Source: an uncultured Leptospiraceae bacterium
Lineage (GTDB): Bacteria > Spirochaetota > Leptospiria > Leptospirales > Leptonemataceae
Direction: 5' to 3'
Length of the DNA stretch: 64,000 nucleotides
NCBI GenBank assembly: GCA_964585735.1
Contig: CAZPFB010000012.1
Coordinates: 1,937 to 65,936 of the forward strand
Part shown: positions 2,178-64,000 of the stretch, piece by piece
How positions within the stretch are numbered: position 1 is the stretch's first letter
Layout: each line of letters opens with the position of its first letter
The notes under the pieces: model-generated
Seen by the model: only the letters and a program-made list of their open reading frames with translations
Database searches by the model: none
What the model was told of the DNA's origin: nothing
Program-made: the position numbers and the translations under genes

Positions 2178-2190
2178 TGAGGAATTGGAC

Positions 2191-3815: not shown

Positions 3816-5009
3816 ATGAGTCATCACAAAGTAGTAGTTGCCACCGGTACACGCGCGGAATACGGGCTGCTGAAGCGTCTGATTCAGCTGCTGCAGGCCG
3901 AGCCGAACTTCACTGCGGAGATCCTCGTCACCGGTACGCACCTTTCGCCGGAGTTCGGAATGACTCGCAACGAGATCTTGCGGGACGGGTTGCCGGTTGG
4001 CGCGACCGTCGAAATGCTCCTCTCCAGCGACTCACCGCTGGGTGTCGCCAAGTCGACGGGGTTGGGGCTCATCGGATTTGCCGATGCCCTGGACCGCCTG
4101 CAACCGGATCTCCTGATTGTTCTCGGAGACCGCTTTGAAATGCTGGCGGCCGCTACAGCCGCCATGCTCATGAGAGTCCCGATCGGCCACATTCACGGGG
4201 GCGAACTCACCGAGGGCGCGCTGGATGACGCCATTCGACACAGCATTACAAAAATGTCGATCCTGCACTTCACGGCCGCGGAGGAGTATCGTCGTCGTGT
4301 CATTCAGCTCGGTGAATCTCCTTCAACTGTCTTCACTGTCGGCGGGTTGGGCGTGGACAGTGTCGTGCACGGAGACCTGCTGGACGCATCGACCCTCGCC
4401 TCGGTCTTGGGCGTGACCATGGGCAAGAGAAACCTATTGGTGACCTTTCACCCGGCCACCCTGGAGTCGACCGCACCCGGGGAGCAAATGGGCGAAATGC
4501 TCCGCGCCTTAGGCCGACTTGTCTCCGGTGACGAGCATCTTCACGTCTTCTTTACGCATCCGAATGCGGACTCAGGGGGTCGCCTGATCAGCCAGCGAAT
4601 CCGCGAATTCTGCGCCGAGCGACCGGGCCGCTGTTGGGAGTTCGTTTCATTGGGCACTCAGCGCTACCTGTCCCTCCTGCGCCACGCCGATGTTGTTGTT
4701 GGCAACTCCTCCAGCGGCCTGCTCGAGGCGCCGAGCTTGGGGACCGCAACCGTCAACATCGGCAGCCGACAGGCCGGCCGCCTTCGGGCGGAGAGTGTCA
4801 TCGACTGTGAGCCCGAGGCCGAGGCTATCCTGGGCGCCGTGCGGGAGGCCTACAGTGACGCGTTCCGGCGACGCGTCGTGGACGCAAGAAACCCTTACGG
4901 CGACGGCGGGGCCAGCCAGAGAATTGTGGCGCTCCTCAAGGAGCGGCTGCCGATCCGGAATCTGCGGAAGCGCTTCCTGGACCTGCCGCTGACCGTCCCC
5001 GCCGGATAG
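3816..5009 (+). CDS. neuC: UDP-N-acetylglucosamine 2-epimerase, hydrolysing type (NeuC/LegG-like)
   Basis: VVVATGTRAEYGLLKRLI, GTHLSPEFG, LGDRFE and HIHGGE motifs. Start placed at ATG 3816 (MSHHK) rather than the listed 3774. Confidence 0.9.
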   Translation: MSHHKVVVATGTRAEYGLLKRLIQLLQAEPNFTAEILVTGTHLSPEFGMTRNEILRDGLPVGATVEMLLSSDSPLGVAKSTGLGLIGFADALDRLQPDLLIVLGDRFEMLAAATAAMLMRVPIGHIHGGELTEGALDDAIRHSITKMSILHFTAAEEYRRRVIQLGESPSTVFTVGGLGVDSVVHGDLLDASTLASVLGVTMGKRNLLVTFHPATLESTAPGEQMGEMLRALGRLVSGDEHLHVFFTHPNADSGGRLISQRIREFCAERPGRCWEFVSLGTQRYLSLLRHADVVVGNSSSGLLEAPSLGTATVNIGSRQAGRLRAESVIDCEPEAEAILGAVREAYSDAFRRRVVDARNPYGDGGASQRIVALLKERLPIRNLRKRFLDLPLTVPAG

Positions 5010-44473: not shown

Positions 44474-45337
44474 ATGACGATTGGTGAATTGCTCGGCCTG
44501 CTGGTGCGGGGCCAACTCCTGCCCGCAGAAGAGGCCGGGCGGCTCTCGGGCCTTCCGGCCACGGAGGTCTACGCGGCCCTTCAGGCCCGGGGCCGGTCCT
44601 TCCACCGGGAGCTGGAGCGCTTCCTCGCTGATCGGATTCCCTCACGCCCCCAGCAAACCACAGAGTGGACCTACGAGATTGCGCTCGGGCGCGTGGCCGG
44701 GTCGCGGGGGGCGGACGCCTTTCTCTTCGAGCCCATCGACAAAGACATCACCGCTTTCTTCCTTTGGGAAACGAGGGGCACCGAACTGGACGCGGTCCTC
44801 GGGTCGCTTGTGATCCTGGGCGCCGTGAAGCTCCTGCACGAACCGATCCCCCCTGGCCCGTCCGGCGTTGCGAGGCAGGTGAATCGCGTGTTGGCCGAGC
44901 TCGAACCGGGGGGCGCGTACACCTCGCTTTGCGTGGCGCTCCTCGATGTGCACCGGGGCGTGGTCGAATACTGCTGCGCCGGTACACCTGCGCCGCTCCT
45001 GTACCGCGCGACCGAGCGCGATGTCAGCGAATGCACGGAGGGTTGGGGGATCCCGGCCGGAATTGAACGGGACAGTCAGTTCTCGACCGGCTACCTGCTC
45101 CTGCGTCGGGGGGACATACTCCTTCTATCCACGGACGGAATGTGGAAAGCGCAGGGCGCGCGGGGGAGTGTGATAACTTCCGCTCAGTGGAAACGCAGGC
45201 TGCGTCAGTTCGCGGACAGGCAGGCCGACGGAATCCGCAAAGGCCTCCAGAGAGAATTGCGCCTGCACCTCATGCATCGGCGGGCCAGGGATGGCGCCAC
45301 GGTCGCTGTCATCAAACGTCGGGGGCACGTCCGTTGA
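44474..45337 (+). CDS. PP2C/SpoIIE-family serine phosphatase
   Basis: C-terminal domain with GADAFLFEPI, LLLSTDGMW and DGATVAVIKR acidic metal-ligand blocks. Start placed at ATG 44474. Confidence 0.7.
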   Translation: MTIGELLGLLVRGQLLPAEEAGRLSGLPATEVYAALQARGRSFHRELERFLADRIPSRPQQTTEWTYEIALGRVAGSRGADAFLFEPIDKDITAFFLWETRGTELDAVLGSLVILGAVKLLHEPIPPGPSGVARQVNRVLAELEPGGAYTSLCVALLDVHRGVVEYCCAGTPAPLLYRATERDVSECTEGWGIPAGIERDSQFSTGYLLLRRGDILLLSTDGMWKAQGARGSVITSAQWKRRLRQFADRQADGIRKGLQRELRLHLMHRRARDGATVAVIKRRGHVR

Positions 45338-47061
45338 CCGAAGAAATCACACTGCACGGCCACAGCGCTTCGAGCGGGATTGGACTCGGGGAGGCCGTGC
45401 TGCTGCCGCCCCTTTCGGGGTTTGTGCCTCACCACTCGGTTTCCGCGCCCGACCGGGCCGAAGAGCGGAGGCGATTGGAAAGGGCCCTCAAGAAAAGTAT
45501 CGAGCAGCTCTCGAGCATCATGGAGCGCGAGGAGCTGGCCGACGAGTACCGTCAGATCTTCGAAGCGCAACTGCTCTTTTATCAGGATCCCCTCATCCTG
45601 GAGGAGGTCCGCACGCGGATCGACTCGGGCGCCAACGCGGAGGCGGCCCTCGTGGACACGTTCGATTCCTTCAAAAAGAAAATGGCTGTGATTGACAATC
45701 AGATCATCCGCGAGCGGGCTTCGGACCTGGACGACGTCGAGAATCGTATCCTTTCGAACCTCATGGAAGTGCCGGAAGGAGACATCCGCATCCCACTGCT
45801 CCGTGGACTTTCGGAAAAATCCATCCTCATCGCCGACGACATCAGCCCGTCGCTCATGCTGCACGTACGCCACGTCGCGGGCATAGCCATCGAGCGCGGT
45901 GGTGTTACCGGGCACATGGCCATTCTTGCTCGGAGTCGGGGCATTCCCGCTGTCGTTGGCGTCGAGGGACTATTGGCTTCGGCCCAAGACGGTCAGTCGG
46001 TGCTGGTGGACGCGGAGAGCGGTCGGATTGTCGTTTGTCCCGGTCGGGATCAGCGACGTCTGCACGAGACCTTTGCGGAGCAGCTTGTACGCAGCGTCCA
46101 GCAGGGTGTCGTGGGGCTGCATACGCTTGCCGACGGGACGACGGCCGAGCTGTGGGTCAACCTGAACGAACCGGACGATTTTGCGGACGCCCGCGTCCAC
46201 GCCGCGGCGGGAATCGGTTTGTTCCGCACGGAGTTCATCTACCTGAACCAACCGGGCCTCTTCTTCATGCCCGAAGAGCAGCAGGCGGTTTACGAAGACA
46301 TCCTCCGCCGTGCCCGCGGGCGAACCGTGACGCTGCGCGTCCTGGACATCGGGGACGACAAGCTGGTCGGCTCTTCGTTCTACAACGTGGTCAATCTCCA
46401 CCGCGAATCGTTGCGCAACCTGCGCGGAATCCAGTTCCTTCTGGCCAACCCCAGGCTACTGCGCTCCCAGCTTCGCGCTATCCTTGGTGCCGTGAAAGCC
46501 GTGGGCGGCGGTCCCTGTCGTCTGTTGCTCCCGATGATCACGGGCGTGGAGCAGGTGGAGGACTTCCGCGCGCACCTCGTGGCTGCCGCAAACGAATCGG
46601 ACTGCACCGCCTCGGGCCTTCCCTTGGGCGTGATGCTCGAAACGCCGGCCGCGTGCCTCATGGCCGATACCCTGGCCGCGCACTGCGACTTCTTCAGCGT
46701 GGGCACCAACGATCTGGCTGCGAGCCTCTATGCAGTCGATCGGGTCGAGTCGCTCGGCCGGGAGAACTCGCTCTACCAGCCGGCCCTCTACCGAATGATT
46801 GCCGCAGTGCGTCGCGCGTCCGCGCGTCCGCTCGCGGTCTGCGGTGAAGTGGCCGCGGTGCCCGGCCTTCTGGTCGTGCTCGTCGGGCTGGGGCTGCGTC
46901 AGTTCAGCATCGCCCGAACGGCGCTGCCGGGCGCTTCGGCGGTGCTGGCCAATGTGAATCCAAACACCGCGGAGGAGTTGGCGCAAAGGGCGCTCGCGGC
47001 TTCCGGAGAAGCGGCACTGCGGCGAATTGCGAGGGAGGCGGAGCGTGCGACTGTTCCGTGA
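45334..47061 (+). CDS. ptsI: phosphoenolpyruvate-protein phosphotransferase (PTS enzyme I)
   Basis: SSGIGLGEA, active-site GGVTGHMAILARSRGIPAVVG, GLFRTEFIY and SVGTNDL. TTG 45334 overlaps the phosphatase stop (TTGA). Confidence 0.9.
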   Translation: MTEEITLHGHSASSGIGLGEAVLLPPLSGFVPHHSVSAPDRAEERRRLERALKKSIEQLSSIMEREELADEYRQIFEAQLLFYQDPLILEEVRTRIDSGANAEAALVDTFDSFKKKMAVIDNQIIRERASDLDDVENRILSNLMEVPEGDIRIPLLRGLSEKSILIADDISPSLMLHVRHVAGIAIERGGVTGHMAILARSRGIPAVVGVEGLLASAQDGQSVLVDAESGRIVVCPGRDQRRLHETFAEQLVRSVQQGVVGLHTLADGTTAELWVNLNEPDDFADARVHAAAGIGLFRTEFIYLNQPGLFFMPEEQQAVYEDILRRARGRTVTLRVLDIGDDKLVGSSFYNVVNLHRESLRNLRGIQFLLANPRLLRSQLRAILGAVKAVGGGPCRLLLPMITGVEQVEDFRAHLVAAANESDCTASGLPLGVMLETPAACLMADTLAAHCDFFSVGTNDLAASLYAVDRVESLGRENSLYQPALYRMIAAVRRASARPLAVCGEVAAVPGLLVVLVGLGLRQFSIARTALPGASAVLANVNPNTAEELAQRALAASGEAALRRIAREAERATVP

Positions 47062-53544: not shown

Positions 53545-54261
53545 TCAGAACAGTGGCCCTTCGGGTCCGGGATCGAGGAAACGCCGCAGAGCTTCCGGGC
53601 GTCGGAGTCGCAGCGTCAGGTAAGCGCCTCCCATGACAAACAGCAGGCCCGCGGGCAGGAGCAGGGCAAGAAAACCGAGCGCCGAGAAACCGAGGACACC
53701 GGCCACTCCACCTGTGATGAATCCGGTGAGAATGCTGCCGTGGAGGAGCAACCGGTCGCCGCGGACCACCGCACCTCTCAGAATCGCACCGAGCTTCATG
53801 CCCAAATCCGTGACAATGCCCGTCATATGAGTCGTGCGCACGACCAATTCGTTCACTTTGCTCATCATGCCGTTCTGGAGACCCATGGCGAGCGCGGCCA
53901 CCAGTTCCCCGTAGAGCAGAACACCGCGCACGAAGAACAGGGTCGCAGCGACGAGCAGCGTGGCCTCCACCAACATGAGGATTCCGTAGCGGCGGCCGGC
54001 TTTGAATCGCTCGTTACGGGTCACCATCCCCGAAAAAACCGTCCCGGCAAAAAAGGAAGCAAGCGGCAGTCCGGCCTGAGAAAGAAGCGGCCCATCCAAC
54101 CGTACGGCGCCCAGCGCTACGCGCGTGAGGTTTCCGGTTGCGTGGGTGAGCAGCGCCTGTGCCAACCCGAGCAGGCCGACAGCGTTGACCAATCCTGCCA
54201 CGAGCGCAAGAAATGCTCCCCCGAAAATCAGCCAGAAAGGCGCTCTCGATCGGGTAGGCAT
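53545..54261 (-). CDS. DUF1275 (YoaK-like) membrane protein
   Basis: Polytopic membrane protein with the THATGNLT and THMTGIVTDLG motifs I associate with DUF1275. Confidence 0.55.
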   Translation of the reverse strand: MPTRSRAPFWLIFGGAFLALVAGLVNAVGLLGLAQALLTHATGNLTRVALGAVRLDGPLLSQAGLPLASFFAGTVFSGMVTRNERFKAGRRYGILMLVEATLLVAATLFFVRGVLLYGELVAALAMGLQNGMMSKVNELVVRTTHMTGIVTDLGMKLGAILRGAVVRGDRLLLHGSILTGFITGGVAGVLGFSALGFLALLLPAGLLFVMGGAYLTLRLRRPEALRRFLDPGPEGPLF

Positions 54262-54321
54262 CCGGCTACCGTCGGCTCCGAAGTCTGCCGGTTCGGCAGG
54301 CCAGGAACGCCGGCTCCTGTT

Positions 54322-55104
54322 TCACTTGGGCGACCACCGGCTCTCGTCGAGGTGGCCGAGCAGGCGGAGCAGGCCGTCGAGGATGGTCAGGGGGTGCGGC
54401 GGGCAACCCGGTATGTAGAGGTCCACGGGCAGCGTTCCGCCGACACCGCCGAGTTGCTCGGGACTGGCAAAGTACGGGCCACCTGATATGGCGCAGGCGC
54501 CCACGGCGATAACGATCTTGGGAGCGGGAACCGCCGCGTACGTTTTCTGGACCGCGAGGAGCATGTTTCGGGTGATGCAGCCTGTTACCAGGAGGCCGTC
54601 CGCGTGACGCGGTGAGGCGACGAACTGGATGCCGAAACGACCCAGATCCCAGCCGATGGTTCCAAGCACGTTCACGTCGGCTTCGCACGCATTGCAGCCT
54701 CCCGCGCTCACCTGCCGCAGACGCAGCGAGCGCCCGAAGAGACGCCGCAATCGGTCATCCAACTGTGCGGCGAGCTCCATCTCCCCTGCGCCTTCGACGA
54801 CCAGGTGTTCGCGTTTGCGTGTTGCGAGTCGGTACTCCGTGTCAAAACCGATGGCTCCCTGCGGGCAGGCGTCCATGCACTCCGTACAGAACAGGCACCG
54901 GCCGAGGTCGACGGAGAGTTTCGATTCGGCGCTGATGGCCCCCGTGGGACAGGCGCGGGCACACTCCCGGCAACCGTCCGGGCATTTGGTTTCGTCCAGA
55001 CGTGGTCTCCCGCGGAAGTGGTGCGGCATCTCCGGCCCGGGAGCATCGGGGAATGCCATCGTTCGTTTCCCCTGTCGGATGCGTGCGCGCAGTGCTTTGA
55101 TCAT
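54322..55104 (-). CDS. fused 2x[4Fe-4S] ferredoxin (HyfH/HycF-like) and NuoB/HycG-like small subunit
   Basis: N-terminal half has CPDGCRECARACP and CLFCTECMDACP. C-terminal half has GGCNACE, GACAISGG and IPGCPPHP, which are the four Cys of the proximal cluster. Confidence 0.85.
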   Translation of the reverse strand: MIKALRARIRQGKRTMAFPDAPGPEMPHHFRGRPRLDETKCPDGCRECARACPTGAISAESKLSVDLGRCLFCTECMDACPQGAIGFDTEYRLATRKREHLVVEGAGEMELAAQLDDRLRRLFGRSLRLRQVSAGGCNACEADVNVLGTIGWDLGRFGIQFVASPRHADGLLVTGCITRNMLLAVQKTYAAVPAPKIVIAVGACAISGGPYFASPEQLGGVGGTLPVDLYIPGCPPHPLTILDGLLRLLGHLDESRWSPK

Positions 55105-55165
55105 GGAAGGTTGCCTGAAGGGAGCCCGGAGTCATTGCTTAATCTAGGCATAGTGTTGTATGCAT

Positions 55166-56689
55166 TCATAGATCGAATCCGCAGTAGGAGAGGTTGAAAC
55201 TCTTGTTGCACAGGGGGAAATCCGAAATCTCTTCGTTGCGCATTGCCAGGGCCAGGCCCATCCAGTTGTGAAAGGATGGATCGACGATCTTGTAACGGGC
55301 GAATCGCCCCTTTTCATCCGTGAGGGCGACATGGCAGACTTCTCCCCGCCAGCCTTCCACGAGCGAAACGACCATAGACTGTGGCCGCAGGGCGGGGCGA
55401 CCTCCACCGACCTGTGGGGCGCCGGCGGGCAGCGAGCCCAGCCGTTCCCGAACGAACTGGATGGAACGCCTGATTTCCAGCCAGCGGACGAAGGCCCGTG
55501 AATGAACGTCGCCGTTCGGAGCAGTCGTGACGGGAATGCTCGCAAAGCGATACATGCCGAACGGATGGTCCATGCGCACGTCCCGCTCGAGGCCGGAAGC
55601 ACGCGCCGCGGGTCCGACGATCCCCGCCTCCATGCAGAGCTCGGCCGAAAGGACGCCCTTGTTTTCGAAGCGGGCCAGGATGGAAGGGGTGTTCCACAAG
55701 AGGGAAACGGCCTCGGTCACGTCCCGCTCCGCGGCGTCCAGGGAGGAAAGCACAGCCCGTACCTCCGACGCCGTCGGAAGGAAGCGTACGCCACCCGGCA
55801 CGATCAGGTCCCGACCGAAACGGCTGCCGCACAAAGCGGCCGTCATGTTGAGGAAGTCGCCGCGCAGGCGCCCGCAGAAAGAGAGTGTCGGAAGGTAGCC
55901 CACATCTCCGGCAAGCGCGCCCAGGTCGCCGGTGTGATTGGCCAACCGCTCCAGTTCCAGGGCAACCGCGCGGATGATCTGAGCGGCCGCCGATGGCTCC
56001 AGTCCGCTCTGGGCCTCTATGTTCTGGCAGTACGCAAGCGTGTGCGCCACGGTGGAATCGCCTGCGGCAGTTTCGATTTGCTTGCGCGTGATCGGGTGCG
56101 GACCTTCGAGGAGAGACGCTTCCACGCCGCGATACTGATAACCCAGAGATATTTCGAGGTGGAATACCTTTTCGCCGTGGCATTGAAAGCGAAAGTGTCC
56201 CGGCTCGATGACTCCTGCATGCACGGGCCCGACCGCCACTTCGTGAACCTCCTTGCCTTCCACCCGGTAGAAGTCCATTCGCCCGATGGCGCCCGGGTCC
56301 GAAACTTGGGCCGTTCCAAAGGCCGTAGCGAACCGCACGGGCTTGAGCCAAGGATGCCCGTGTGGTCGGACGCCGAACTGTTCGAACACCTCGCGCTCGA
56401 AGAGATGCAATTGCGGACACTCTGGGGTTAGGGCGGGAAAGGAGTCCCCCTGGATGCGGGTGCGCAGAGGATGGAGTCTGCCCTCGTAGTCGTCGGCAAA
56501 GATCAGGTGGAGGTCCAATCCGCCGGCCTCCGCGGAAGGCAGCGCGAACATGGCGGAAACACGTTTGCCTTCGCCGATGAGGCGCAGGGTCTGAATGCGC
56601 AGGGCTTCGTACGGCATATCCGGAACCAGATCGATCGGAAACGCACGACCGTTGAAAACCGTGGGAATTTCTGGAACGCCCTGATTCAT
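55166..56689 (-). CDS. HyfG/HycE/NuoCD-like large subunit lacking [NiFe] cysteine motifs
   Basis: NuoC-like N-domain plus VGPVHAGVIEPGHFRF and LGYQYRGVE blocks of group-4 large subunits. There is no CxxC anywhere in the protein (see finding). Confidence 0.85.
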   Translation of the reverse strand: MNQGVPEIPTVFNGRAFPIDLVPDMPYEALRIQTLRLIGEGKRVSAMFALPSAEAGGLDLHLIFADDYEGRLHPLRTRIQGDSFPALTPECPQLHLFEREVFEQFGVRPHGHPWLKPVRFATAFGTAQVSDPGAIGRMDFYRVEGKEVHEVAVGPVHAGVIEPGHFRFQCHGEKVFHLEISLGYQYRGVEASLLEGPHPITRKQIETAAGDSTVAHTLAYCQNIEAQSGLEPSAAAQIIRAVALELERLANHTGDLGALAGDVGYLPTLSFCGRLRGDFLNMTAALCGSRFGRDLIVPGGVRFLPTASEVRAVLSSLDAAERDVTEAVSLLWNTPSILARFENKGVLSAELCMEAGIVGPAARASGLERDVRMDHPFGMYRFASIPVTTAPNGDVHSRAFVRWLEIRRSIQFVRERLGSLPAGAPQVGGGRPALRPQSMVVSLVEGWRGEVCHVALTDEKGRFARYKIVDPSFHNWMGLALAMRNEEISDFPLCNKSFNLSYCGFDL

Positions 56690-58128
56690 AAAGGCTTCTC
56701 GAAATACGCGCGCGCCTGCTCCAGGACATCCCGCAGCGGTCCCGGAATGTACAGACCGAGCAAAAGCACGATCACAAGCAAAAGGCCGGCCGGTATCACG
56801 GTGAAGGGCGTGTCCTGGAAGCCTGTCGTTTGCATCGGTCGCTCGGGGGTCCCCTGGACGACGCGCAGTACGGTCTGACCCATCCCGATAAACACGACAA
56901 ACAGCAGCCCCAGGATGGAAGCGGAGAGCGCGTACTGCCCGTCGCCCACGGCGCCGCGCAGTATCGTGAACTCGCTGATGAAGACGCCGAATGGTGGCGA
57001 ACCCGTGATGGCGATGAACCCTCCGAGGAAGAGGGCCGCAGACCAGGGGACCCGGCGCAGGGCTCCGGTCACCTGGTCGGTGTGTTTGCTGCCGAAAGCG
57101 CGGTGGATGTTAGCTGCCGAAAGGAACAGCACGCCTTTGGTGAGCGCGTTGGTGATGACGTGCAGAAATGTCCCGAAGAGGGCGATTCCGCCGATGGCCA
57201 CTCCCAATACCAGCACGCCCATGTGCTCGACGCTCGAGTAGGCAAGCATCCGTTTGAAGTCCTTCTGCTGGGCCATGAAAACAGCCGCAAAAAGCATGGA
57301 CACCAAACCGGAAACGATCAGGACCTCGCGCACAAAATCAGCCTGACCGGCCGCGCGCAGGATCATCGCGAAGCGCAGAAGCGCCACGAAAGCGCAACCC
57401 GTCACGCCGCCCGCAAGCATGGCGCCCACGATCCCGGGGGCTTCGCCGTACGCATCCGGCTTCCAGGTGTGCATGGGTGCAAGCCCCATCTTGGTGCCGT
57501 AGCCCACGAACACCATGGCAAACGCCGCCAGAAGCCACGGCCGCGAAAACCCTGACGCGTGCAGCAGCATATCTTCGAACAGGAGTGAAGTCACGTGCCC
57601 GCCCTGAAGGGAGGCATACGCCATGAAGAATGTGCCCAGAAGCGCCAGGGCGATTCCGACCGAACAGACCAGCAGGTACTTCCATGTGGCCTCGATGGAC
57701 CGGGCGGTCTGGTTGAAGTAGAGCAGGGGGCCGGATGCGAGCGATGTGGCTTCCATGGCCACCCACATGAGTCCCAATTGATGTGAGCAGAGGACGAGCA
57801 GGGCGCTTGCATCCATTAAGAGAAAGCACGCGACGAAGACTCGATTGGGGCGACCGGCGCGCAGAAGCAGGTAGCCCGGCGCGTAAAGCGTGCAGCAGAA
57901 GAACAGACCGCACAGCGCAAGCAGCACCACGCGGGCCACGGGGTCGAGCACGAACCATCCAATGGACGGCGCCGGTTCTGTGAACACCAACCACAGCGAG
58001 AGCGCCATTTCGACCGTCCCCACCACGGGCAGCACAAATGGTCGAACACGGTTCGAGGGGATCAGGAGCGCAACAAGGGCCCCCGCCACGGGTATTGTCG
58101 GCAGAAGGATCAGCAGGTAGTCGTTCAT
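56686..58128 (-). CDS. hyfF: antiporter-like subunit (HyfF/NuoN-M type)
   Basis: About 14 TM helices with conserved WVAMEATSL, GYGTKMGLAPMHTWKPDAY and AYSSVEHMG blocks. ATGA overlaps at both ends. Confidence 0.85.
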   Translation of the reverse strand: MNDYLLILLPTIPVAGALVALLIPSNRVRPFVLPVVGTVEMALSLWLVFTEPAPSIGWFVLDPVARVVLLALCGLFFCCTLYAPGYLLLRAGRPNRVFVACFLLMDASALLVLCSHQLGLMWVAMEATSLASGPLLYFNQTARSIEATWKYLLVCSVGIALALLGTFFMAYASLQGGHVTSLLFEDMLLHASGFSRPWLLAAFAMVFVGYGTKMGLAPMHTWKPDAYGEAPGIVGAMLAGGVTGCAFVALLRFAMILRAAGQADFVREVLIVSGLVSMLFAAVFMAQQKDFKRMLAYSSVEHMGVLVLGVAIGGIALFGTFLHVITNALTKGVLFLSAANIHRAFGSKHTDQVTGALRRVPWSAALFLGGFIAITGSPPFGVFISEFTILRGAVGDGQYALSASILGLLFVVFIGMGQTVLRVVQGTPERPMQTTGFQDTPFTVIPAGLLLVIVLLLGLYIPGPLRDVLEQARAYFEKPL

Positions 58129-58769
58129 TCTTTCAGCGTTGTCAGGTGCTTCGTGTCCAGGGAAGAGAATGCACGTCGAATGTGATTGAGGATGATGCCC
58201 ATTGCGAAGACGGCCACGAAGAGGTCCAGCAGGCCGCCCATCTCCACCAGGAGCGGTAGGGCATCGATGAGCAGCAGGCCGAACAATAGAATCCCGTTCT
58301 CCAGGACCAGGTAGCCCACAACCTGCGTGATGGCCTTCAGCCTGGTCGTCAGGATCAGAAACCCGGTCAGGATCGTAGAGAAAGAGGCCGGCATGATGAA
58401 GCGGCGCGCCGGTTCTCCGGAGTCGCCGAGCGAGGCGGCAAAGAGCACGGCAAGTCCGGTACCGACGCCCCCCAGCAGCAGCGAAGGCACGAATCCTACA
58501 AACGGTTCCACTTCGCGTCGAATCTGGACTTCTTTGATGGCCCGAAAGAGCAGAATGGGAATCCCGAAGCCCTTGATGAGGATCGCAAGCGTGCCGACCA
58601 CGAGGTGGCCCAGGTGTATTTCGCTCGCTCCGATGATGGACAAAGTGCCCAAAAGCGCACCCTGGGCTGCCGCAGCGCGGATGATTGTACCGATCCGGCT
58701 GACGCCAAGCATCAGGAAGTTCAAAAGAACCATGACAACCAGCAGCGTATCGATGAGCCCGTCCACCAT
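58125..58769 (-). CDS. hyfE: HyfE-like small membrane subunit
   Basis: 214-aa polytopic protein at the HyfE position. The C-terminal GYLVLENGILLFGLLL block resembles NuoK. Start at ATG 58769, behind AAGGAA. Confidence 0.7.
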   Translation of the reverse strand: MVDGLIDTLLVVMVLLNFLMLGVSRIGTIIRAAAAQGALLGTLSIIGASEIHLGHLVVGTLAILIKGFGIPILLFRAIKEVQIRREVEPFVGFVPSLLLGGVGTGLAVLFAASLGDSGEPARRFIMPASFSTILTGFLILTTRLKAITQVVGYLVLENGILLFGLLLIDALPLLVEMGGLLDLFVAVFAMGIILNHIRRAFSSLDTKHLTTLKE

Positions 58770-58776
58770 AGGTTCC

Positions 58777-59673
58777 TTACCGGAGCAGCAGCACGAACCC
58801 AAACAATGTCAGGAGCGTAGCCGAGATGATCAGCTTGGGCACGTTGTTGAGTCGCAGTCGGGCGATGCTGGATTCCACAACACCCACCGCCACACCAACA
58901 CAGGCAACACCCCCGAGGAGCACGCCGAATCGCGCGTACCCCCACTCGGGTGGAAAAGGTACGATCACCTGAACGACCAGCGCCGACATCAAGAACAGCT
59001 TGATCGAAGAAGCATACTCGATGAGCCCGAGCAGCGGTCCGCTGTGATCGAGGACCATGACTTCGTGCACCATGGTCAGCTCCAGGTGCGTGTTCGGATC
59101 GTCGAAGGGGATCCTGGAGTTTTCGGCCAGCAGGATGATGAACCAGCTCACGGAAAGCAGAAGGAGCGCCCCCACTGTGCCCTCCGGTGCGGCCGTGCGC
59201 ACGAGCATCTCGGAGAGGCTGAGGGAGCCTGAGATCTTGGCCAGGAGTACTGCCCCGGCAAAGAATGCGGGTTCCACGAGCGCTGCAAACGTCACCTCCC
59301 GCGAAGCCCCCATCCCTTCGAAGGGCGAACCCGTGTCCATGGCCGCTGCGGCCACGAAGAATCTGCCTGCTGCCAGCAGGTAGGCGGCCAGAATGAAGTC
59401 TCCTGTAAAGCGGACGGGCGCGGGGGCGGACAACGGTATCAACAATCCGGCCGCACAAACGGTCGTGAGAGACACCGCCGGACCGGCGTGAAAAACCCAG
59501 GTGGTTGCCGAGCTGATCACCGTGTCCTTCCGGAAGAGCCGCAACAGGTCGTAGTAGAGCTGAAGCAGCGGAGGACCCTGTCTGCCGGCAAATACGGCCT
59601 TGGTCCTGTTGATGATTCCGGTCAGCAGCGGCGGCAGCGCAAGCAGAAGCGCAACGTGCAGGGCGACGTCCAT
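58777..59673 (-). CDS. hyfC: NuoH/HycD/HyfC-like membrane subunit
   Basis: LLTGIINRTKAVFAGRQGPPLLQLYYDLLRLFRK and PFDDPNTHLELTMVHE motifs. ATG 59673 overlaps the upstream stop (TGATG). The listed ORF 58777..60834 is an alternate-frame extension. Confidence 0.85.
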   Translation of the reverse strand: MDVALHVALLLALPPLLTGIINRTKAVFAGRQGPPLLQLYYDLLRLFRKDTVISSATTWVFHAGPAVSLTTVCAAGLLIPLSAPAPVRFTGDFILAAYLLAAGRFFVAAAAMDTGSPFEGMGASREVTFAALVEPAFFAGAVLLAKISGSLSLSEMLVRTAAPEGTVGALLLLSVSWFIILLAENSRIPFDDPNTHLELTMVHEVMVLDHSGPLLGLIEYASSIKLFLMSALVVQVIVPFPPEWGYARFGVLLGGVACVGVAVGVVESSIARLRLNNVPKLIISATLLTLFGFVLLLR

Positions 59674-61649
59674 CAACTCCACCTCCACAGCAGCAGAAGC
59701 AGCATGGCCAGGAAGACGTAGAGAATGTAGAGCTGCACCTGCCCCGCCTGCAGAATGCGCAGGCGCGCAATCCATCGCGAGCCAAACCGAAAGGCAGGCA
59801 ACACTGCTGCGTCCAAAACGATGTCCAGAGCGTGCGACTCGAATGTGCTTTGCTTCGCAAGAAGGCCGCGTGGTTCCGTGACCGCGTCGCGCACCAGAAG
59901 CAGCGGACGGAAGTAGCCCACCAGGCCCGCACCAAATGACGAGGCCGTGTACTGCATGGAGGGACAGGTTTCGACGAAACCGCAGTCCCAGGTGGGCGCC
60001 CGCATCGCTGACCTGCTGCGCAAAGCAAGGTGCAGGACGCCGCCGCCGACGATCACCGCAATCGGGATGCCCACCCAGCTCAGCCACTCCAGTTGAGCAA
60101 GTCGTGCGATTCCCGGGTGGCCCGACGGCCACCACGGGAAGACGGACCCCGCACTTTCGAGAATGGGTGCGCAGAGGATGGGGACCAATCCGATGCAGAC
60201 ACAGAGCGCCCCGAGAAAGAGCATGGAGCCGGTCATGGTGCCCGGGGCTTCGGTCGCCCCCTCGGCGGCAGCCGACCGTGCTGTCCCGAGGAAGACGGTT
60301 CCAAACACCTTCACGAAGCAGGCGAGGGCCAGCGCCCCCATGAAAGCCAGGCCCGCCACCGACAGAAGGCCCAGCACCCCGGCCGGCGGGTGCGGCAGTT
60401 GAGCCATGCGCACCAGCCCCAGGTAGATGAACATTTCGCTCACGAAACCGTTGAGCAGCGGCAGGCCGCAGATTGCGTAGGCGCCGCACAGAAAGGACAA
60501 CGAGGTCAGCGGCATTCGGCGCGCCAGGCCGCCCTGCGTGTCCAGGTCGCGGCTGCCTGTGGCGCGCACGACCGCCCCCGAGGTCAGAAACAGAAGGGAT
60601 TTGAAGAGTCCATGGTTCCAGACGTGGAGGAGCGCGCCTCCCATGCCCAGGACGATGAGAGTCGGTTGTTCGAGGGCGGCCCCGGCAACACCCACGCCAA
60701 TACCGGTGAAGATGATCCCGATGTTTTCGATGCTGTGATAGGCCAACAGGCGCTTGAGATCGTGCTGGCCGATTGCATAGACGACGCCGATGATCCCGGA
60801 TGCGATCCCGAGGATGATGAGCACGGCCGCCCACTCAATTGTCGGTCGGGGGCAGACCGAGAGAACACGCAGAATGCCGTAGACTCCCATCTTGATGAGA
60901 ACGCCGGAGAGCACCGCGGAGACATGCGCGGGCGCGCTGGCGTGGGCGGAGGGCAGCCACATGTGCAGCGGAAAGATTCCGGCCTTGAGTCCGAAGGCCA
61001 CCACGGCGAGCGCGAAGAGGACCGCGGTGTGGCCCGCGTTCTCGTCCAGCATCGAAAAGGCAAAACCGCCGGTTGTGTTGGCGTACAGGGCAAAGAGAGC
61101 AAACAAAGACAGCGTGCAGGCGTGAGCTGCAACGAAATACAGCCAACCGGCGCGGCGCACCTGGGCGTCCTCGTCCTCGGTCGTGACCAGGAAGAAGGCG
61201 GAAAGCGTCATGATCTCCCAACCGATCAGGAACACCAGGGCGTGGCGCGCCAGCACGACGAGCCCCATCCCGGCCACCAGCCAACCATAAACAAACTCAA
61301 GTTTTCCCGCGCCGTGTGGCTGTTCGTCGGCCGGCCGGTAACGCAGTCCGAACAGCGCGCTCGTGGTTGGAACGACGAAGATCGGCACGAGGAAGAACGC
61401 CGAAAGTGCATCCGCCCGAAGATAGTCGGACAGCAAAGGCCCAAAACCGGCCCGACCGGCTCCGGCCGTTGTATGCGTTTCGACCAGCACGCAGACGGCC
61501 CCTGTGGCGCCCAGGACGCCGGCGCACGTCAGGAGCACGAGCGCCGCCCGCTGCCCGGCGCGGCCCGCGTGGGGGACCAGTACCCCGGGCGCCCCAGAAA
61601 GAGCGCTCAGGACCAGAGCAACGAGGAAGAGCAATCCCACCGCCGTCAT
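59673..61649 (-). CDS. hyfB: antiporter-like subunit, HyfB/NuoL type, copy 2
   Basis: About 16 TM helices with GWEIMTLSAFFLV, KAGIFPLHMWLPSAHASAP and LAYHSIENIG blocks. ATG 61649 overlaps the upstream stop (ATGA). Confidence 0.85.
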   Translation of the reverse strand: MTAVGLLFLVALVLSALSGAPGVLVPHAGRAGQRAALVLLTCAGVLGATGAVCVLVETHTTAGAGRAGFGPLLSDYLRADALSAFFLVPIFVVPTTSALFGLRYRPADEQPHGAGKLEFVYGWLVAGMGLVVLARHALVFLIGWEIMTLSAFFLVTTEDEDAQVRRAGWLYFVAAHACTLSLFALFALYANTTGGFAFSMLDENAGHTAVLFALAVVAFGLKAGIFPLHMWLPSAHASAPAHVSAVLSGVLIKMGVYGILRVLSVCPRPTIEWAAVLIILGIASGIIGVVYAIGQHDLKRLLAYHSIENIGIIFTGIGVGVAGAALEQPTLIVLGMGGALLHVWNHGLFKSLLFLTSGAVVRATGSRDLDTQGGLARRMPLTSLSFLCGAYAICGLPLLNGFVSEMFIYLGLVRMAQLPHPPAGVLGLLSVAGLAFMGALALACFVKVFGTVFLGTARSAAAEGATEAPGTMTGSMLFLGALCVCIGLVPILCAPILESAGSVFPWWPSGHPGIARLAQLEWLSWVGIPIAVIVGGGVLHLALRSRSAMRAPTWDCGFVETCPSMQYTASSFGAGLVGYFRPLLLVRDAVTEPRGLLAKQSTFESHALDIVLDAAVLPAFRFGSRWIARLRILQAGQVQLYILYVFLAMLLLLLWRWS

Positions 61650-63649
61650 CGAAGACCCTCGATGCGTGCCATGGCCCACACGGTCGTCAAGAGGAGCGCA
61701 AGCAGGATGTACAGCAGGTAGAACTGTACGACTCCGTGGTGGAGAACGCGGAGTCGGTAGAACCGGTTGGAGAGATTCTGCCAGAAGGGGACCAGAACCC
61801 GATCGAGGAGCGGTTCGCGGGCTTCAAATTGGACGGCCGCGGGTTGAGGAAAAACATCGGTCGTACTCGTGCCGGTGCGTTCCCGGCGGAGCGGGAAACG
61901 GCGCAGCAGTTGTGCGCTCGGGCCGACAAAAGACGAAGCCGTGTACTGCATTCGGGCCGGGGACGAATCGACGTAGCCGCAATCCCAGGTGCCCGCCCTG
62001 GGCGCGCGGGCGGACAGGCGGCGGACCGCCACGATGGACGCAAGCGCCAGAGGTCCAACTACGACGAGGAAGCGGGAAATTTCTCCAAATGAAACCAACG
62101 TGCCCAGCGAGGGGAGAGCGGCCGCAGAACCAGAGGTTCCGGCCAGAGCTCGGACGGCGGCGTCCAGCGCCGGCACAAGGAGGACCGGAACGAAACCGAC
62201 CAGCAAGATCAGGCCCGTGTTGAAGACGAGGGCGCCGTGAAGAAACGGAAAGCGGCCCGCGTGATGGTCCCCGGTCGAGCGCGGCCGACCCAGGAACATC
62301 ACGGCGTAGGCGCGCAGGAAGGAGATAAGGGCGAGTCCACCCGCGAGACACAGGCTCACGATCGCGAGGGTGCCGACCACGGCCGCCCATGGGGACTTTC
62401 CGAGGCCGAGTTCCAGGGCGCCCAGGTACAATGGGACTTCTCCCACAAAACCGTTGGCACCGGGCAGACCCACCAGCGCCCAGACCCCGGCCAGAAAACA
62501 CGCCCCAACGACGGGAAGCGTGCGGACCAGGCCGCCCATCCGATCCATGCTGCGTTCCTTGGTGGCGTGCATGACCGCGCCCGCGCCAAAAAAGAGCAGT
62601 GATTTGAAAACGGAATGGTTCAGCAGGTGGAAGAGGGCCCCGCCACCGCCGAGGGCCGTCAGCGTCGGGTTTTCCACGGCGCGCCCGAAGAGGAAGATCC
62701 CGGCGCCCACGGTAATGAGTCCCGCGTTCTCGATCGTACTGTAAGCAAGCAACCGCTTGATGTCGCTCTGCCAAAGGGACGCCACCACGCCGAAAAGTGC
62801 CGTGACCGAACCCAAACCGAGGAGAAGTCCGGCCCACCACAGTGGCGGGTGGGAAACGAGTGAGAATGTGCGCAGCAGTCCGTAGAAGCCCATCTTGACG
62901 AGTACCCCGGACATCAGAGCCGAAACATGTCCGGGCGCGGATGCATGCGCGCCCGGCAGCCAGAAGTGGAGCGGAAAGAGTCCGGCCTTCATTCCGAAAC
63001 CCACGAGGAGCAAACATAGGAGCAGGACTCCGTCGCTCCCGGAAAGGCCGTCCAGGTTTGTCCAGTTGAACGAGCCGCTGCGTTCGCCCATCCAGAGGAA
63101 TTGGAGGATCAGCGCCGCAGTGCCCGCGTGTGTCGAGACCAGATACACCCACGACGCCGAACGCACTTCCGGCTTTTCGTGTTCCGTGCCCACGAGGAAA
63201 AACGCCGCGACGGCCATCACCTCCCAGAACACCAGGAAGAGCACGCCGTTTCGAGCAACGAGGAGCCCGGCCATCGCGGCCGTCACCAGTCCGTAGAAGA
63301 AGCGCAGCGCACGCCCATTGCCGCGGCGCTCGGATTGCGGCCAGTAGTCCAACCCGTAGAGTGCGCCCACCGCAGAAACAATGTACACCGGGATCAGGAA
63401 GAGCGCCGACAGCGCGTCCAGACCAACGAGGAATCTGGCGTCCGGCACGAACCATACGTCCAATGCAAGGGTGCTCTGGCCGTGCGCGAAGGTGACGGCA
63501 ACTCCAATGAGACCGACCGCGGAGGCGAGCACCGAAAGTGCCGCCGAGAGCCTCTGTCCGTTGTTCGAATCCCGCGAAAAGGCAAGGCCCGGCAGACCGC
63601 TTGCGCCGGCGCAGCCGCACGAAAGTAATACCAGTTCGATCCCGGTCAC
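61646..63649 (-). CDS. hyfB: antiporter-like subunit, HyfB/NuoL type, copy 1
   Basis: FWEVMAVAAFFLV, KAGLFPLHFWLPGAHASAP and LAYSTIENAG. GTG 63649 overlaps the upstream stop (GTGA). Confidence 0.85.
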   Translation of the reverse strand: MTGIELVLLSCGCAGASGLPGLAFSRDSNNGQRLSAALSVLASAVGLIGVAVTFAHGQSTLALDVWFVPDARFLVGLDALSALFLIPVYIVSAVGALYGLDYWPQSERRGNGRALRFFYGLVTAAMAGLLVARNGVLFLVFWEVMAVAAFFLVGTEHEKPEVRSASWVYLVSTHAGTAALILQFLWMGERSGSFNWTNLDGLSGSDGVLLLCLLLVGFGMKAGLFPLHFWLPGAHASAPGHVSALMSGVLVKMGFYGLLRTFSLVSHPPLWWAGLLLGLGSVTALFGVVASLWQSDIKRLLAYSTIENAGLITVGAGIFLFGRAVENPTLTALGGGGALFHLLNHSVFKSLLFFGAGAVMHATKERSMDRMGGLVRTLPVVGACFLAGVWALVGLPGANGFVGEVPLYLGALELGLGKSPWAAVVGTLAIVSLCLAGGLALISFLRAYAVMFLGRPRSTGDHHAGRFPFLHGALVFNTGLILLVGFVPVLLVPALDAAVRALAGTSGSAAALPSLGTLVSFGEISRFLVVVGPLALASIVAVRRLSARAPRAGTWDCGYVDSSPARMQYTASSFVGPSAQLLRRFPLRRERTGTSTTDVFPQPAAVQFEAREPLLDRVLVPFWQNLSNRFYRLRVLHHGVVQFYLLYILLALLLTTVWAMARIEGLR

Positions 63650-64000
63650 GTGGAGGCTCCTCGGCGCAGCGTTCCGCCCGATTCGGACAGGCCGACCAGG
63701 GCCTGGAGCATACGGCTCTGCGGCGCGCGTTCGGAGATCATCTTCCGGAAGGCTTCATCCTGAAGATCGCGCGCGAGGCCGGACAGGAGATACAGATGTT
63801 CGTGGTTGGTCCTTGTCACCAGGAGAAAGAAGGTGTGCACCGGCCGTCCATCGGCGGCCTGGAAGTCCACGGGGCGTTCCGGATGATAGATGAACAGACG
63901 CGCCGGCATTTCCGGCACAAGGAACGGACCGCGAACGTGCGGAATGGCAATTCCGTCTGATGCCGCGCCGCCTGTTTGTTGTTCTCGGGACCGCAGGAGC
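63646..64000 (-). CDS. PTS EIIA type-2 (EIIA-Ntr/Fru-like) domain protein, 5' end outside window
   Basis: The frame is open to the window edge. It reads ...DGIAIPHVRGPFLVPEMPARLFIYHPERPVDF...FFLLV..., with the GIAIPH phospho-histidine motif of PTS_EIIA_2 domains. Confidence 0.7.
   Translation of the reverse strand, partial: LLRSREQQTGGAASDGIAIPHVRGPFLVPEMPARLFIYHPERPVDFQAADGRPVHTFFLLVTRTNHEHLYLLSGLARDLQDEAFRKMISERAPQSRMLQALVGLSESGGTLRRGAST

What the first reader, a model, noticed from the sequence alone, without database searches (positions are those of the whole stretch)
63646..64000. PTS EIIA(Ntr/Fru)-type gene translationally coupled to the head of the Ehr-like operon
The partial ORF at the window edge carries the GIAIPH phospho-histidine motif of type-2 EIIA domains. 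Its stop codon overlaps the GTG start of the first antiporter-like subunit (GTGA at 63646-63649), which implies co-translation. EIIA-Ntr proteins are established regulators of ion homeostasis in enterobacteria, where PtsN acts on TrkA and KdpD. A PTS phosphorelay domain hard-wired to a complex-I/Mrp-like ion pump is not something I know to be described. A complete EI (ptsI, 45334-47061) sits in the same window.
Basis: partly seen in the sequence, partly recalled or inferred. Interest (0 to 1): 0.6.

Follow-up and report, generated by a model that had tools for sequence, protein, structure and literature searches.

The report
PtsN-like DNA-binding regulator heading Ehr operon
The partial gene at the window edge is a small protein joining a DNA-binding domain to a PtsN-type phosphorylation sensor; it leads the operon of a complex-I-like membrane complex of unknown function (Ehr) in many bacteria, so it is probably that complex's dedicated switch.

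Summary
The minus-strand ORF ending at 63646 carries GIAIPH, and its TGA overlaps the GTG of the first antiporter-like gene. Continued on the contig, it is a 225-aa protein with an excisionase-type HTH_17 domain and a PtsN-like EIIA domain.

The linkage holds in both directions. All 60 informative metagenomic relatives have the HyfB-like gene directly downstream. In Spirochaetota, 31 of 37 informative Ehr clusters carry the gene.

About half of the homologous loci carry a direct repeat, TGTCCA-N4-TGTCCA, over the core promoter. Its presence tracks the HTH sequence. The family is therefore most likely a phosphorylation-controlled autoregulator rather than a bare PTS subunit.

This copy is divergent. 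It sits on a long branch, has an altered recognition helix, and shows no recognisable operator.

The genome has EI, HPr and HprK, and no hit to the one EIIC family searched. Three more EIIA domains are fused to a P-type ATPase, a permease and a KdpD-like sensor. Paralogues elsewhere lead ClC, Na+/H+ exchanger and SulP genes.

I found no description of this in the searchable literature. The same pairing has been noted repeatedly in this scan.

The parts
63646..64000 (-). 3' 354 nt (117 codons plus stop) of the HTH_17-EIIA(Ntr-type) gene. The complete gene is 63646 to window-equivalent 64323 (contig C12:65582-66259), 225 aa: HTH_17 at residues 3-48 and PTS_EIIA_2 at residues 75-207.
   Evidence: AF2 model with pLDDT 88
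63937..63954 (-). Codons for GIAIPH. His129 of the full protein is the predicted phospho-acceptor. R113, H129 and H176 are invariant in 36 family members.
63646..63649 (-). GTGA: the TGA stop of the HTH-EIIA gene overlaps the GTG start of ehrA1.
   Evidence: the same tight junction is seen in 50 of 57 homologous loci
63657..63662 (-). GAGGAG Shine-Dalgarno sequence for ehrA1, 7 nt before the GTG and inside the end of the HTH-EIIA gene.
   Evidence: sequence read
61646..63649 (-). ehrA1: HyfB/NuoL-like antiporter subunit, 667 aa.
59673..61679 (-). ehrA2: second HyfB-like antiporter subunit, 668 aa.
58777..59673 (-). ehrB: NuoH/HyfC-like subunit, 298 aa, with a TGATG junction to ehrA2.
58125..58802 (-). 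ehrC: HyfE-like membrane subunit.
56686..58128 (-). ehrD: HyfF/NuoN-like antiporter subunit.
55166..56689 (-). ehrL: NuoCD/HyfG-like large subunit. I saw no canonical NiFe CxxC motifs in it.
54322..55104 (-). ehrS: fusion of a 2x[4Fe-4S] ferredoxin and a NuoB-like small subunit.
45334..47061 (+). ptsI (Enzyme I, 575 aa, no GAF domain), the likely first step of the phosphorelay to the EIIA domain.

Best explanation
The gene encodes a 225-aa one-component regulator made of an excisionase-type winged helix (HTH_17) and a PtsN-like EIIA domain. It is the conserved leader gene of Ehr (energy-converting-hydrogenase-related) operons.

Proposed mechanism:
1. The HTH binds direct repeats over the operon's own sigma-70 promoter and represses it. 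In canonical members the site is aTGTCCA-N4-TGTCCAa, overlapping the -10 or the -35 element. This step is inferred from cis-element conservation and position.
2. The EIIA domain is phosphorylated on His129 by HPr~P, itself made from PEP by EI. This step is inferred from the invariant Arg/His/His triad and from the presence of EI, HPr and HprK in the genome.
3. The phosphorylation state changes DNA occupancy, so synthesis of the Ehr complex follows the cell's PEP/carbon-nitrogen-ion status. This step is pure inference.

What is shown here is the domain architecture, the conserved two-way gene linkage, the tight junction, and the conserved operator that co-varies with the HTH. In this particular window the protein is a fast-evolving member (R21E, P29V, W47Y in the HTH) and no canonical operator is present. 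Its DNA target is therefore unknown here.
For: Architecture:
- HTH_17 scores 35.8 bits and PTS_EIIA_2 56.4 bits, both above their cut-offs. TIGR01764 (excisionase family) scores 33.7 against 28.8.
- The AF2 model (pLDDT 88) has an N-terminal beta-alpha-alpha-beta-beta-alpha domain and an EIIA domain.
- The best structural and sequence matches are PtsN entries 3URR, 1A6J, 2A0J and 4GQX.

Phospho-site: R113, H129 and H176 are invariant in 36 members.

Linkage:
- All 7 database homologues whose contigs were inspected precede an Ehr-type cluster.
- All 60 informative metagenome loci have EhrA directly downstream, and 50 of 57 junctions are at most 20 nt or overlapping.
- In 301 Spirochaetota genomes 47 have EhrL. 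Of 37 informative loci, 28 have the gene directly upstream of ehrA and 3 have it in a permuted cluster.

Operator:
- Exact GTCC-N(5-8)-GTCC occurs in 35 of 85 upstream regions (33 sites with N6), against 3.2 regions expected from shuffles.
- The PWM score exceeds every shuffle in 44 of 85 regions, at a fixed distance of about 53 or 63 nt before the ATG. By my own reading of the printed sequences, the site overlaps TTGACA-N17-TAnAAT.
- Motif presence tracks the HTH signature EKT[IV]YRW...PA[YF], with odds ratio 26 and p = 3e-10, not corrected for phylogeny.

Phosphorelay in this genome: EI lies in the window, and HPr (with His15 and Ser46) and HprK lie next to rpoN on C181. No PTS_EIIC was found.

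Phylogeny: the own protein lies inside the main Ehr-linked clade, sister to L023 with 98/92 support.
Against: - No operator is detectable at the own locus. The best PWM score is 5.0, within the shuffle range, and the strict sigma-70 scan finds no promoter.
- The own HTH deviates at nearly invariant positions (R21E, P29V, W47Y), and the protein sits on a branch four times the median length.
- About half of the homologous loci lack the TGTCC repeat.
- No binding, phosphotransfer or expression data exist. Metatranscriptomes from the same samples gave no coverage.
- The co-variation statistic is not phylogenetically corrected, and the PWM was built from the same loci.
- Translational coupling and retention next to ehrA in permuted clusters fit a protein partner as well as a regulator.
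Confidence: 0.55

Rival explanations
1. Dual-function or docking regulator. The protein is made together with the complex, and its EIIA domain binds the antiporter-like EhrA subunit or the whole complex. Ion translocation would then be gated according to PTS phosphorylation, much as PtsN acts on TrkA and KdpD. The HTH either autoregulates or is sequestered at the membrane, as in a 'trigger' regulator.
For: - Stop/start overlap with ehrA1 plus an internal Shine-Dalgarno sequence. The junction is tight in 50 of 57 homologues.
- The gene stays directly in front of ehrA even when the cluster is permuted or split: L030, L064, L073, L078 and L154-156.
- Paralogues of the same family are coupled to single transporters: ClC+CBS in three relatives of this genome with 4-8 nt overlaps, SulP, and Na_H_Exchanger and CitMHS.
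- In this genome EIIA_2 domains are covalently fused to a P-type cation ATPase, an AA_permease+TrkA_C protein and a KdpD-like sensor.
- The EIIA fold also matches the cytoplasmic regulatory domains of SLC4 anion exchangers.
Against: - No interaction was or could be tested here.
- The HTH is the most conserved part of the family and has a matching operator, which a pure subunit would not need.
- Permuted clusters can be explained historically, by partial deletion of tandem operons such as L029 and L039.
- Several paralogues sit next to non-transport genes, for example rsmA in L168 and L171.
Confidence: 0.25
2. The EIIA-like domain is not a phospho-acceptor here but a ligand- or ion-sensing module on a conventional repressor, with no PTS input. 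The PTS-like residues would be kept for structural reasons.
For: - The own protein scores far below the PtsN equivalog cut-offs: TIGR01419 gives 49.6 bits against 138.7.
- Homologous EIIA-like folds act without phosphorylation in SLC4 cytoplasmic domains.
- I did not check whether every genome carrying the cassette has EI and HPr.
Against: - Arg113, His129 and His176, the catalytic triad of type-2 EIIA, are invariant across 36 divergent members, including ClC- and SulP-linked paralogues.
- The genome keeps EI, HPr and HprK and lacks the one EIIC family searched (PF02378). If it truly has no permease, the relay's only outputs are its five EIIA_2 domains.
Confidence: 0.12
3. Ordinary sugar-PTS component, PRD-type regulator, or chance neighbour of the operon.
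For: Source databases name homologues 'PTS sugar transporter subunit IIA'.
Against: - The protein has no EIIB, EIIC or PRD domain, and the genome has no PTS_EIIC.
- The adjacency is conserved in 60 of 60 and in 31 of 37 loci across phyla.
Confidence: 0.02

Closest known systems
PtsN / EIIA-Ntr of the nitrogen-related PTS (E. coli 1A6J; Burkholderia 3URR and 4GQX; Neisseria 2A0J)
   Same: The EIIA domain is closest to these by profile (E about 1e-29, against 1e-10 for EIIA-Mtl) and by fold. It has the same Arg/His/His triad. It sits in a genome whose PTS looks purely regulatory. From established knowledge, PtsN controls ion homeostasis through TrkA and KdpD.
   Different: It is 225 aa with an N-terminal HTH_17 DNA-binding domain. 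It is not in the rpoN cluster. It scores far below the PtsN equivalog cut-offs. The genome has a separate 157-aa PtsN on C97. PtsN acts only through protein contacts, whereas this family has a matching DNA operator.
PRD-containing PTS-controlled transcription regulators (MtlR, LicR, LevR types)
   Same: These are DNA-binding regulators that carry an EIIA-like domain phosphorylated by the general PTS proteins (established knowledge).
   Different: No PRD, no EIIB-like domain and no AAA+ or sigma-54 module were found. The protein is a minimal two-domain one of about 225 aa. Its target is an ion/redox membrane complex rather than sugar catabolism. Operator geometry suggests a repressor rather than an activator or antiterminator.
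Ehr complex of Geobacter sulfurreducens (GSU0739-0745) and Ehr complexes of candidate phyla
   Same: The operon behind the gene has the same composition: EhrA-1, A-2, B, C, D, L and S, with a large subunit lacking NiFe ligands. The function of Ehr is stated to be unknown in PMC7894505, PMC6349859 and PMC10284858.
   Different: Those papers do not mention an associated HTH-EIIA gene. I could not inspect the gene upstream of GSU0739.
hyqRBCEFGI operon of Azorhizobium caulinodans (PMC2650096, PMC3357923)
   Same: It is a published seven-gene operon with the same order: an 'R' gene, then HyfB-, C-, E-, F-, G- and I-like genes. It has genetic phenotypes in H2 recycling.
   Different: The papers do not say what HyqR is. 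Their operon is driven by NifA and sigma-54. I could not verify that HyqR is an HTH-EIIA protein. A sample of 301 alphaproteobacterial genomes gave no strong match to the family, although only part of the candidates were scored.
GlnK-AmtB and Mlc-PtsG type pairs (a small signalling protein or regulator tied to a transporter)
   Same: A small signal-transduction gene is invariably paired and co-transcribed with a membrane transport gene. The regulator may be sequestered at the membrane (established knowledge). This is an analogy for the rival model.
   Different: There is no sequence or fold relationship, and no interaction was shown here.

Membership tests
PTS EIIA type 2 (PF00359) | Domain match above Pfam's gathering score | tested here: met
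   56.4 bits against 27 on the full protein, and 52.7 bits on the window fragment
PTS EIIA type 2 (PF00359) | Phospho-acceptor His in the G-[IV]-A-[IF]-P-H context, plus a conserved Arg and a second His | tested here: met
   R113, H129 and H176 are invariant in alignment A1 of 36 members
PTS EIIA type 2 (PF00359) | Phosphorylation by HPr~P or NPr~P | not testable with these tools
   Only the donors are shown to be encoded: EI in the window, and HPr and HprK on C181
PtsN (EIIA-Ntr) orthologue | Score above the equivalog cut-off of TIGR01419 or NF008145 | tested here: not met
   49.6 bits against 138.7, and 35.2 against 221
PtsN (EIIA-Ntr) orthologue | Single-domain protein of about 150-160 aa, typically in the rpoN cluster | tested here: not met
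   The protein is 225 aa with an HTH and sits at the head of the Ehr operon. The rpoN cluster on C181 holds hprK and ptsH, and a separate 157-aa PtsN is on C97
PtsN (EIIA-Ntr) orthologue | Fold and sequence closest to solved PtsN structures | tested here: met
   4GQX, 3URR, 1A6J and 2A0J are the top hits by profile (about 1e-29) and by Foldseek
HTH_17 / excisionase-family DNA-binding domain | Domain match above cut-off and a winged-helix fold | tested here: met
   PF12728 scores 35.8 against 27 and TIGR01764 33.7 against 28.8. The AF2 model has beta-alpha-alpha-beta-beta-alpha at residues 2-50 with pLDDT above 90
HTH_17 / excisionase-family DNA-binding domain | Sequence-specific DNA binding | tested here: inconclusive
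   Family level: a conserved TGTCC direct repeat over the promoter co-varies with the HTH. Own locus: no site was found
Ehr-operon leader HTH-EIIA family (no published name) | HTH_17 + EIIA_2 architecture, directly upstream of and co-oriented with the first HyfB-like gene | tested here: met
   the same layout is seen in 60 of 60 and 28 of 37 loci
Ehr-operon leader HTH-EIIA family (no published name) | Phylogenetic placement inside the Ehr-linked clade | tested here: met
   The own protein lies inside the 41-row Ehr clade (98/92) and is sister to L023 (98/92), but on a long branch of 1.44
Ehr-operon leader HTH-EIIA family (no published name) | TGTCC-N6-GTCC direct repeat overlapping its own promoter | tested here: not met
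   The best PWM score at the own locus is 5.0, against a shuffle maximum of 9.3. The feature is present in 44 of 85 loci overall
PRD-type PTS-controlled regulators | PRD domain(s) | tested here: not met
   No PRD family appeared in the Pfam scan
Sugar PTS permease (EIIABC) | EIIB or EIIC domains in the protein or the operon | tested here: not met
   The protein has only HTH_17 and EIIA_2. The whole genome has no PF02378 hit, while the control genomes do. Other EIIC families were not searched

The most novel reading that the evidence does not exclude
HTH_17-EIIA proteins would be a general device coupling the PTS(Ntr) to ion transport. Each paralogue would partition between an operator on its own promoter and the membrane transporter it is co-translated with (Ehr, ClC, Na+/H+ exchanger or SulP). 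One phosphorylation event would then set both the synthesis and the activity of the transporter. On this reading Ehr is an ion-homeostasis machine under PTS control rather than a hydrogen or redox enzyme. This divergent Leptospirales-type copy, with an altered HTH and no operator, may have shifted toward the protein-docking role.
Probability: 0.2. Interest if true: 0.8.

Novelty: new variant of a known kind. Interest (0 to 1): 0.6.

Why it matters
Ehr complexes are widespread relatives of complex I and group-4 hydrogenases. Recent papers still state that their substrate and physiological role are unknown (PMC6349859, PMC10284858, PMC7894505).

A dedicated, conserved regulator with a recognisable operator and a PTS-type input gives a concrete experimental handle. 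One can ask when the operon is switched on, by which phosphorylation state, and therefore what the complex is for.

The wider pattern places Ehr among ion-homeostasis functions controlled by the regulatory PTS. The same regulator family leads ClC, Na+/H+ exchanger and SulP genes, and EIIA domains are fused to a P-type ATPase, a permease and a KdpD-like sensor in this genome. It also extends the PtsN paradigm, known so far as protein-protein regulation, to direct DNA binding.

Tried and rejected
- The search for related loci on genome contigs with the single protein found only two PtsN-like partial matches and was not informative.
- Sigma-54 promoter at the own locus: the GG/GC spacing in TGGAGAACCATGC does not fit. 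I checked this by eye and rejected it.
- The strict sigma-70 scan of the own upstream region found nothing. Only TTGACA-N16-TATCTC is visible.
- A direct-repeat search in the own upstream region and those of its nearest relatives (L023, L027, L117) found no shared element.
- Expression: metatranscriptomes from the same samples and studies hold none of the words. Laying four of them on 54000-64000 gave only two chimeric 18-21 nt matches, so there is no evidence either way.
- Literature searches for HTH_17/PTS_EIIA_2, for Ehr with PTS, and for IIA-Ntr fusions found no description of the pairing.
- I tried to tie hyqR of Azorhizobium to this family. The papers do not describe HyqR. A sample of 301 alphaproteobacterial genomes had no hit at E <= 1e-40, with only some candidates scored. 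This remains unresolved.
- The sugar-PTS and PRD-regulator readings were rejected on domain content.
Full report
**1. Observation**

The + strand at 63646-63649 reads tcac. On the coding (minus) strand this is GTGA. TGA ends a frame that is open from the window edge (63999) and translates to ...SDGIAIPHVRG.... GTG starts a 667-aa protein with a Proton_antipo_M domain. NCBIfam aligns that protein to hydrogenase-4 subunit B from its third residue. A GAGGAG Shine-Dalgarno sequence lies 7 nt before that GTG, inside the end of the upstream gene (63657-63662, minus strand). The fragment alone passes PF00359 with 52.7 bits against 27.

**2. The complete gene**

The window is C12:1937-65936 of a 74.6-kb contig in a 5.8-Mb, 219-contig assembly. 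Reading on, the ORF starts at an ATG at window-equivalent 64323, seven codons after an in-frame stop. It encodes 225 aa beginning MQLTV, like every homologue.

- Pfam finds HTH_17 (residues 3-48, 35.8 bits) and PTS_EIIA_2 (residues 75-207, 56.4 bits).
- NCBIfam adds the excisionase-family DNA-binding domain above its cut-off. The PtsN and FruA EIIA models score far below their equivalog cut-offs.
- An AlphaFold2 model built on 36 homologues is confident (pLDDT 88, pTM 0.72). It has a beta-alpha-alpha-beta-beta-alpha winged helix, a less confident linker (mean pLDDT 67 over residues 51-60), and an EIIA domain.
- By profile and by fold, the EIIA part is closest to the solved PtsN proteins 4GQX, 3URR, 1A6J and 2A0J. 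It is clearly closer to these than to sugar EIIA domains. It also resembles the cytoplasmic regulatory domains of SLC4 anion exchangers.
- Arg113, His129 (the His of GIAIPH) and His176 are invariant in the family alignment.

**3. The operon behind it**

The genes run on the minus strand with tight junctions:

| Gene | Coordinates | Note |
|---|---|---|
| ehrA1 | 61646-63649 | HyfB-like |
| ehrA2 | 59673-61679 | HyfB-like |
| ehrB | 58777-59673 | NuoH/HyfC-like |
| ehrC | 58125-58802 | HyfE-like |
| ehrD | 56686-58128 | HyfF-like |
| ehrL | 55166-56689 | NuoCD/HyfG-like; I saw no canonical NiFe CxxC motifs |
| ehrS | 54322-55104 | ferredoxin + NuoB fusion |
| DUF1275 gene | 53545-54261 | follows the operon |

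**4. Is the linkage conserved?**

From the regulator side:
- A search of 5.8 billion proteins gave at least 287 relatives (best 42% identity). All 120 listed have the HTH_17 + EIIA_2 architecture.
- Seven inspected contigs all show the gene directly in front of an Ehr-type cluster. They include Lambdaproteobacteria, Polyangiaceae and Sedimentisphaerales MAGs and four metagenome contigs. One contig has two tandem operons, each with its own copy.
- A scan of metagenome contigs returned the 80 best relatives. All 60 with at least 400 nt downstream have a HyfB-like gene immediately downstream. Of 57 scorable junctions, 24 overlap (21 by exactly 4 nt) and 26 have gaps of 0-20 nt.

From the complex side:
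- In 301 Spirochaetota genomes (the window's phylum), 47 have an EhrL homologue.
- Of 40 loci fetched, 28 have the HTH-EIIA gene directly upstream of ehrA and 3 have it in a permuted cluster (EhrL-EhrS-R). Four canonical clusters lack it, two have another architecture and three are truncated.

The closest relatives of the own EhrL (57%) and the own HTH-EIIA (54%) are in the same genome, G041. None of 24 genomes of the window's own family, and no Leptospira-like genome of the order, has the cassette. It therefore moves as a unit.

**5. Evidence for DNA binding**

I aligned by eye the 85 distinct upstream regions and saw a recurrent direct repeat. I then quantified it.
- Exact GTCC-N(5-8)-GTCC occurs in 35 of 85 regions (33 sites with N6), against 3.2 regions in shuffles (maximum 9).
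- A PWM built from these sites (consensus aTGTCCAaannTGTCCAa) exceeds the best of 425 shuffled regions in 44 of 85 loci.
- The site sits at a fixed place, about 53 nt before the ATG in one orientation and about 63 nt in the other.
- In the first class the layout is TTGACA-N17-TAnAAT followed directly by GTCC. In the second class the repeat covers the -35 element and the spacer (sequences; this reading is my own). This is the geometry of a repressor site.
- Motif presence follows the HTH sequence. 37 of 45 proteins with the signature [ED]K[TS][IV]YRW...[LIMV]PA[YF] have the site, against 6 of 40 without it. The odds ratio is 26 and p = 3e-10.
- Two caveats apply. The test is not corrected for phylogeny, and the PWM comes from the same loci.
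- Other subclades show other phased repeats, for example ACGTAAT-N4-ACGTAAT before the first operon of L029.

Excisionase-type winged helices typically bind direct repeats (established knowledge), which fits.

**6. This copy is atypical**

- No operator is found in its 250 nt upstream. The best PWM score is 5.0, and the only repeat is GGGCAG-N3-GGGCAG over the ribosome-binding region.
- The strict promoter scan finds nothing.
- Its HTH departs from nearly invariant residues (R21E, P29V, W47Y).
- In the tree it lies inside the main Ehr-linked clade, sister to a Lambdaproteobacteria MAG copy with 98/92 support. Its terminal branch is 1.44 against a median of 0.36.
- The EIIA triad is intact.

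Whether this copy still binds DNA, or binds a new site, is open.

**7. The phosphorelay and the wider pattern**

The relay in this genome:
- EI is in the window (575 aa, no GAF domain).
- HPr, with His15 and Ser46 contexts, and HprK lie next to rpoN on C181.
- No PTS_EIIC (PF02378) was found. Other EIIC families were not searched.

The genome has five EIIA_2 domains:
- a 157-aa PtsN;
- this HTH-EIIA protein;
- AA_permease + EIIA + TrkA_C;
- a KdpD-N + Usp + DUF4118 + GAF + EIIA protein without kinase domains;
- EIIA fused to a P-type cation ATPase.

The three fusion proteins each keep the 'LPH' His context.

In relatives and elsewhere:
- In three genomes of the window's own family, which lack Ehr, a 31%-identical HTH-EIIA paralogue overlaps the start of a ClC+CBS channel gene by 4-8 nt.
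- In other Spirochaetota, a further clade leads operons made of a second EIIA protein plus a Na+/H+ exchanger, or a CitMHS transporter. A metagenome contig has one in front of SulP.
- Neighbour type is strongly clustered on the protein tree, with 9 changes against 27.3 when shuffled.

EIIA(Ntr)-type modules in these organisms are thus wired, by fusion or by operon, to membrane ion transport.

**8. Mechanism**

- **Best model (0.55).** A phosphorylation-controlled autorepressor dedicated to the Ehr operon. Architecture, linkage, operator and co-variation are shown. Binding, phosphorylation and its effect are inferred.
- **Main rival (0.25).** The protein also, or instead, docks on EhrA or the complex. 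This is supported by translational coupling and by retention next to ehrA in permuted or split clusters (L030, L064, L073, L078, L154-156). It is also supported by the transporter-coupled paralogues and the fusions. It is untested, and the permuted clusters can derive from tandem operons.
- **Third reading (0.12).** The EIIA domain senses a ligand without phosphorylation.
- **Rejected.** An ordinary sugar-PTS or PRD regulator.

**9. Comparison and novelty**

- The protein works like PtsN in its input. It is not a PtsN orthologue: it is below the equivalog cut-offs, has an extra HTH, and sits in another locus, while a separate PtsN is present.
- It resembles PRD regulators only in being a PTS-controlled DNA binder, and it has no PRD.
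- The papers on Ehr that I could read do not mention the gene and call Ehr's function unknown.
- The Azorhizobium hyqRBCEFGI operon (PMC2650096) has an uncharacterised first gene 'hyqR' in the same position. I could not establish that it belongs to this family.
- After I had derived the linkage and the operator, the scan's own notebook showed that other agents reported the same pairing and the GGACA/TGTCC repeats in many other genomes. Those are unchecked AI notes. Here they agree with results obtained independently.

I therefore rate the finding a new variant of a known kind: a PtsN-type sensor turned into a one-component DNA-binding regulator. It is apparently undescribed in the literature library searched. 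Its value is as a handle on an orphan respiratory-type complex. This particular copy is a divergent example of it.

**10. Source**

Near-identical DNA is present in bioreactor and activated-sludge metagenomes. The kinship table and the two- or three-replicon 4.4-Mb genomes of the sister family suggest a Leptospirales lineage. This is an inference, because names are hidden.

Noticed in passing
own genome C47:31946-35461 (+), C121:~2034-4739 (+), C29:45361-47454 (-): Three further EIIA_2 domains are covalently fused to ion-related proteins. One is an N-terminal EIIA on a P-type cation ATPase. One is a KdpD-N/Usp/DUF4118/GAF sensor that ends in EIIA instead of histidine-kinase domains. One is an AA_permease with EIIA and TrkA_C. 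All keep the His context.
   Followed up: partly
L033:4921-7385, L034:6763-9199, L035:535-3003 (same-family relatives G020, G015, G007): A 31%-identical HTH_17-EIIA paralogue is start/stop-overlapped (4-8 nt) with a ClC chloride channel carrying a CBS domain. This clade is sister to the main Ehr-linked clade.
   Followed up: partly
L158-L169, L176, L177 (Spirochaetota): Another HTH-EIIA clade leads operons of a second, 270-aa EIIA_2 protein plus a Na_H_Exchanger, or lies directly before a CBS-bearing exchanger or a CitMHS transporter. Treponema-like copies sit next to rsmA instead.
   Followed up: partly
window 63045-63068 (+), inside ehrA1: This is the best match in the whole window to the TGTCC-N6-GTCC operator PWM (score 16.8, AGGCCGTCCAGGTTTGTCCAGTTG). 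It lies about 600 nt into the ehrA1 coding sequence on the antisense strand. It may be a codon-driven chance match (NWTNLDG).
   Followed up: no
window 53545-54261 (-); L027:1180-2058; L118:8989-9654: A DUF1275 (YoaK-like) membrane protein gene follows the Ehr operon here. It recurs next to HTH-EIIA genes in two unrelated loci, but it is absent from most.
   Followed up: no
L029:1376-9809: In a contig with two tandem operons, the first has a large subunit with a NiFeSe_Hases Pfam hit. It is led by an HTH-EIIA of the CPA/SulP clade and is preceded by phased ACGTAAT repeats.
   Followed up: no
L030, L064, L154-L156; L073, L078: These are permuted or split clusters. The order is ehrB-C-D-L-S, then HTH-EIIA, then ehrA, or an isolated HTH-EIIA + ehrA pair with the remaining genes divergent or absent. 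The regulator stays with ehrA.
   Followed up: partly
own genome C181:2448-5102 (-): An rpoN - hprK - ptsH cluster is followed by a sensor kinase and a response regulator. HPr carries both the His15 and Ser46 contexts.
   Followed up: partly
I confirmed only the EI domains.
   Followed up: no
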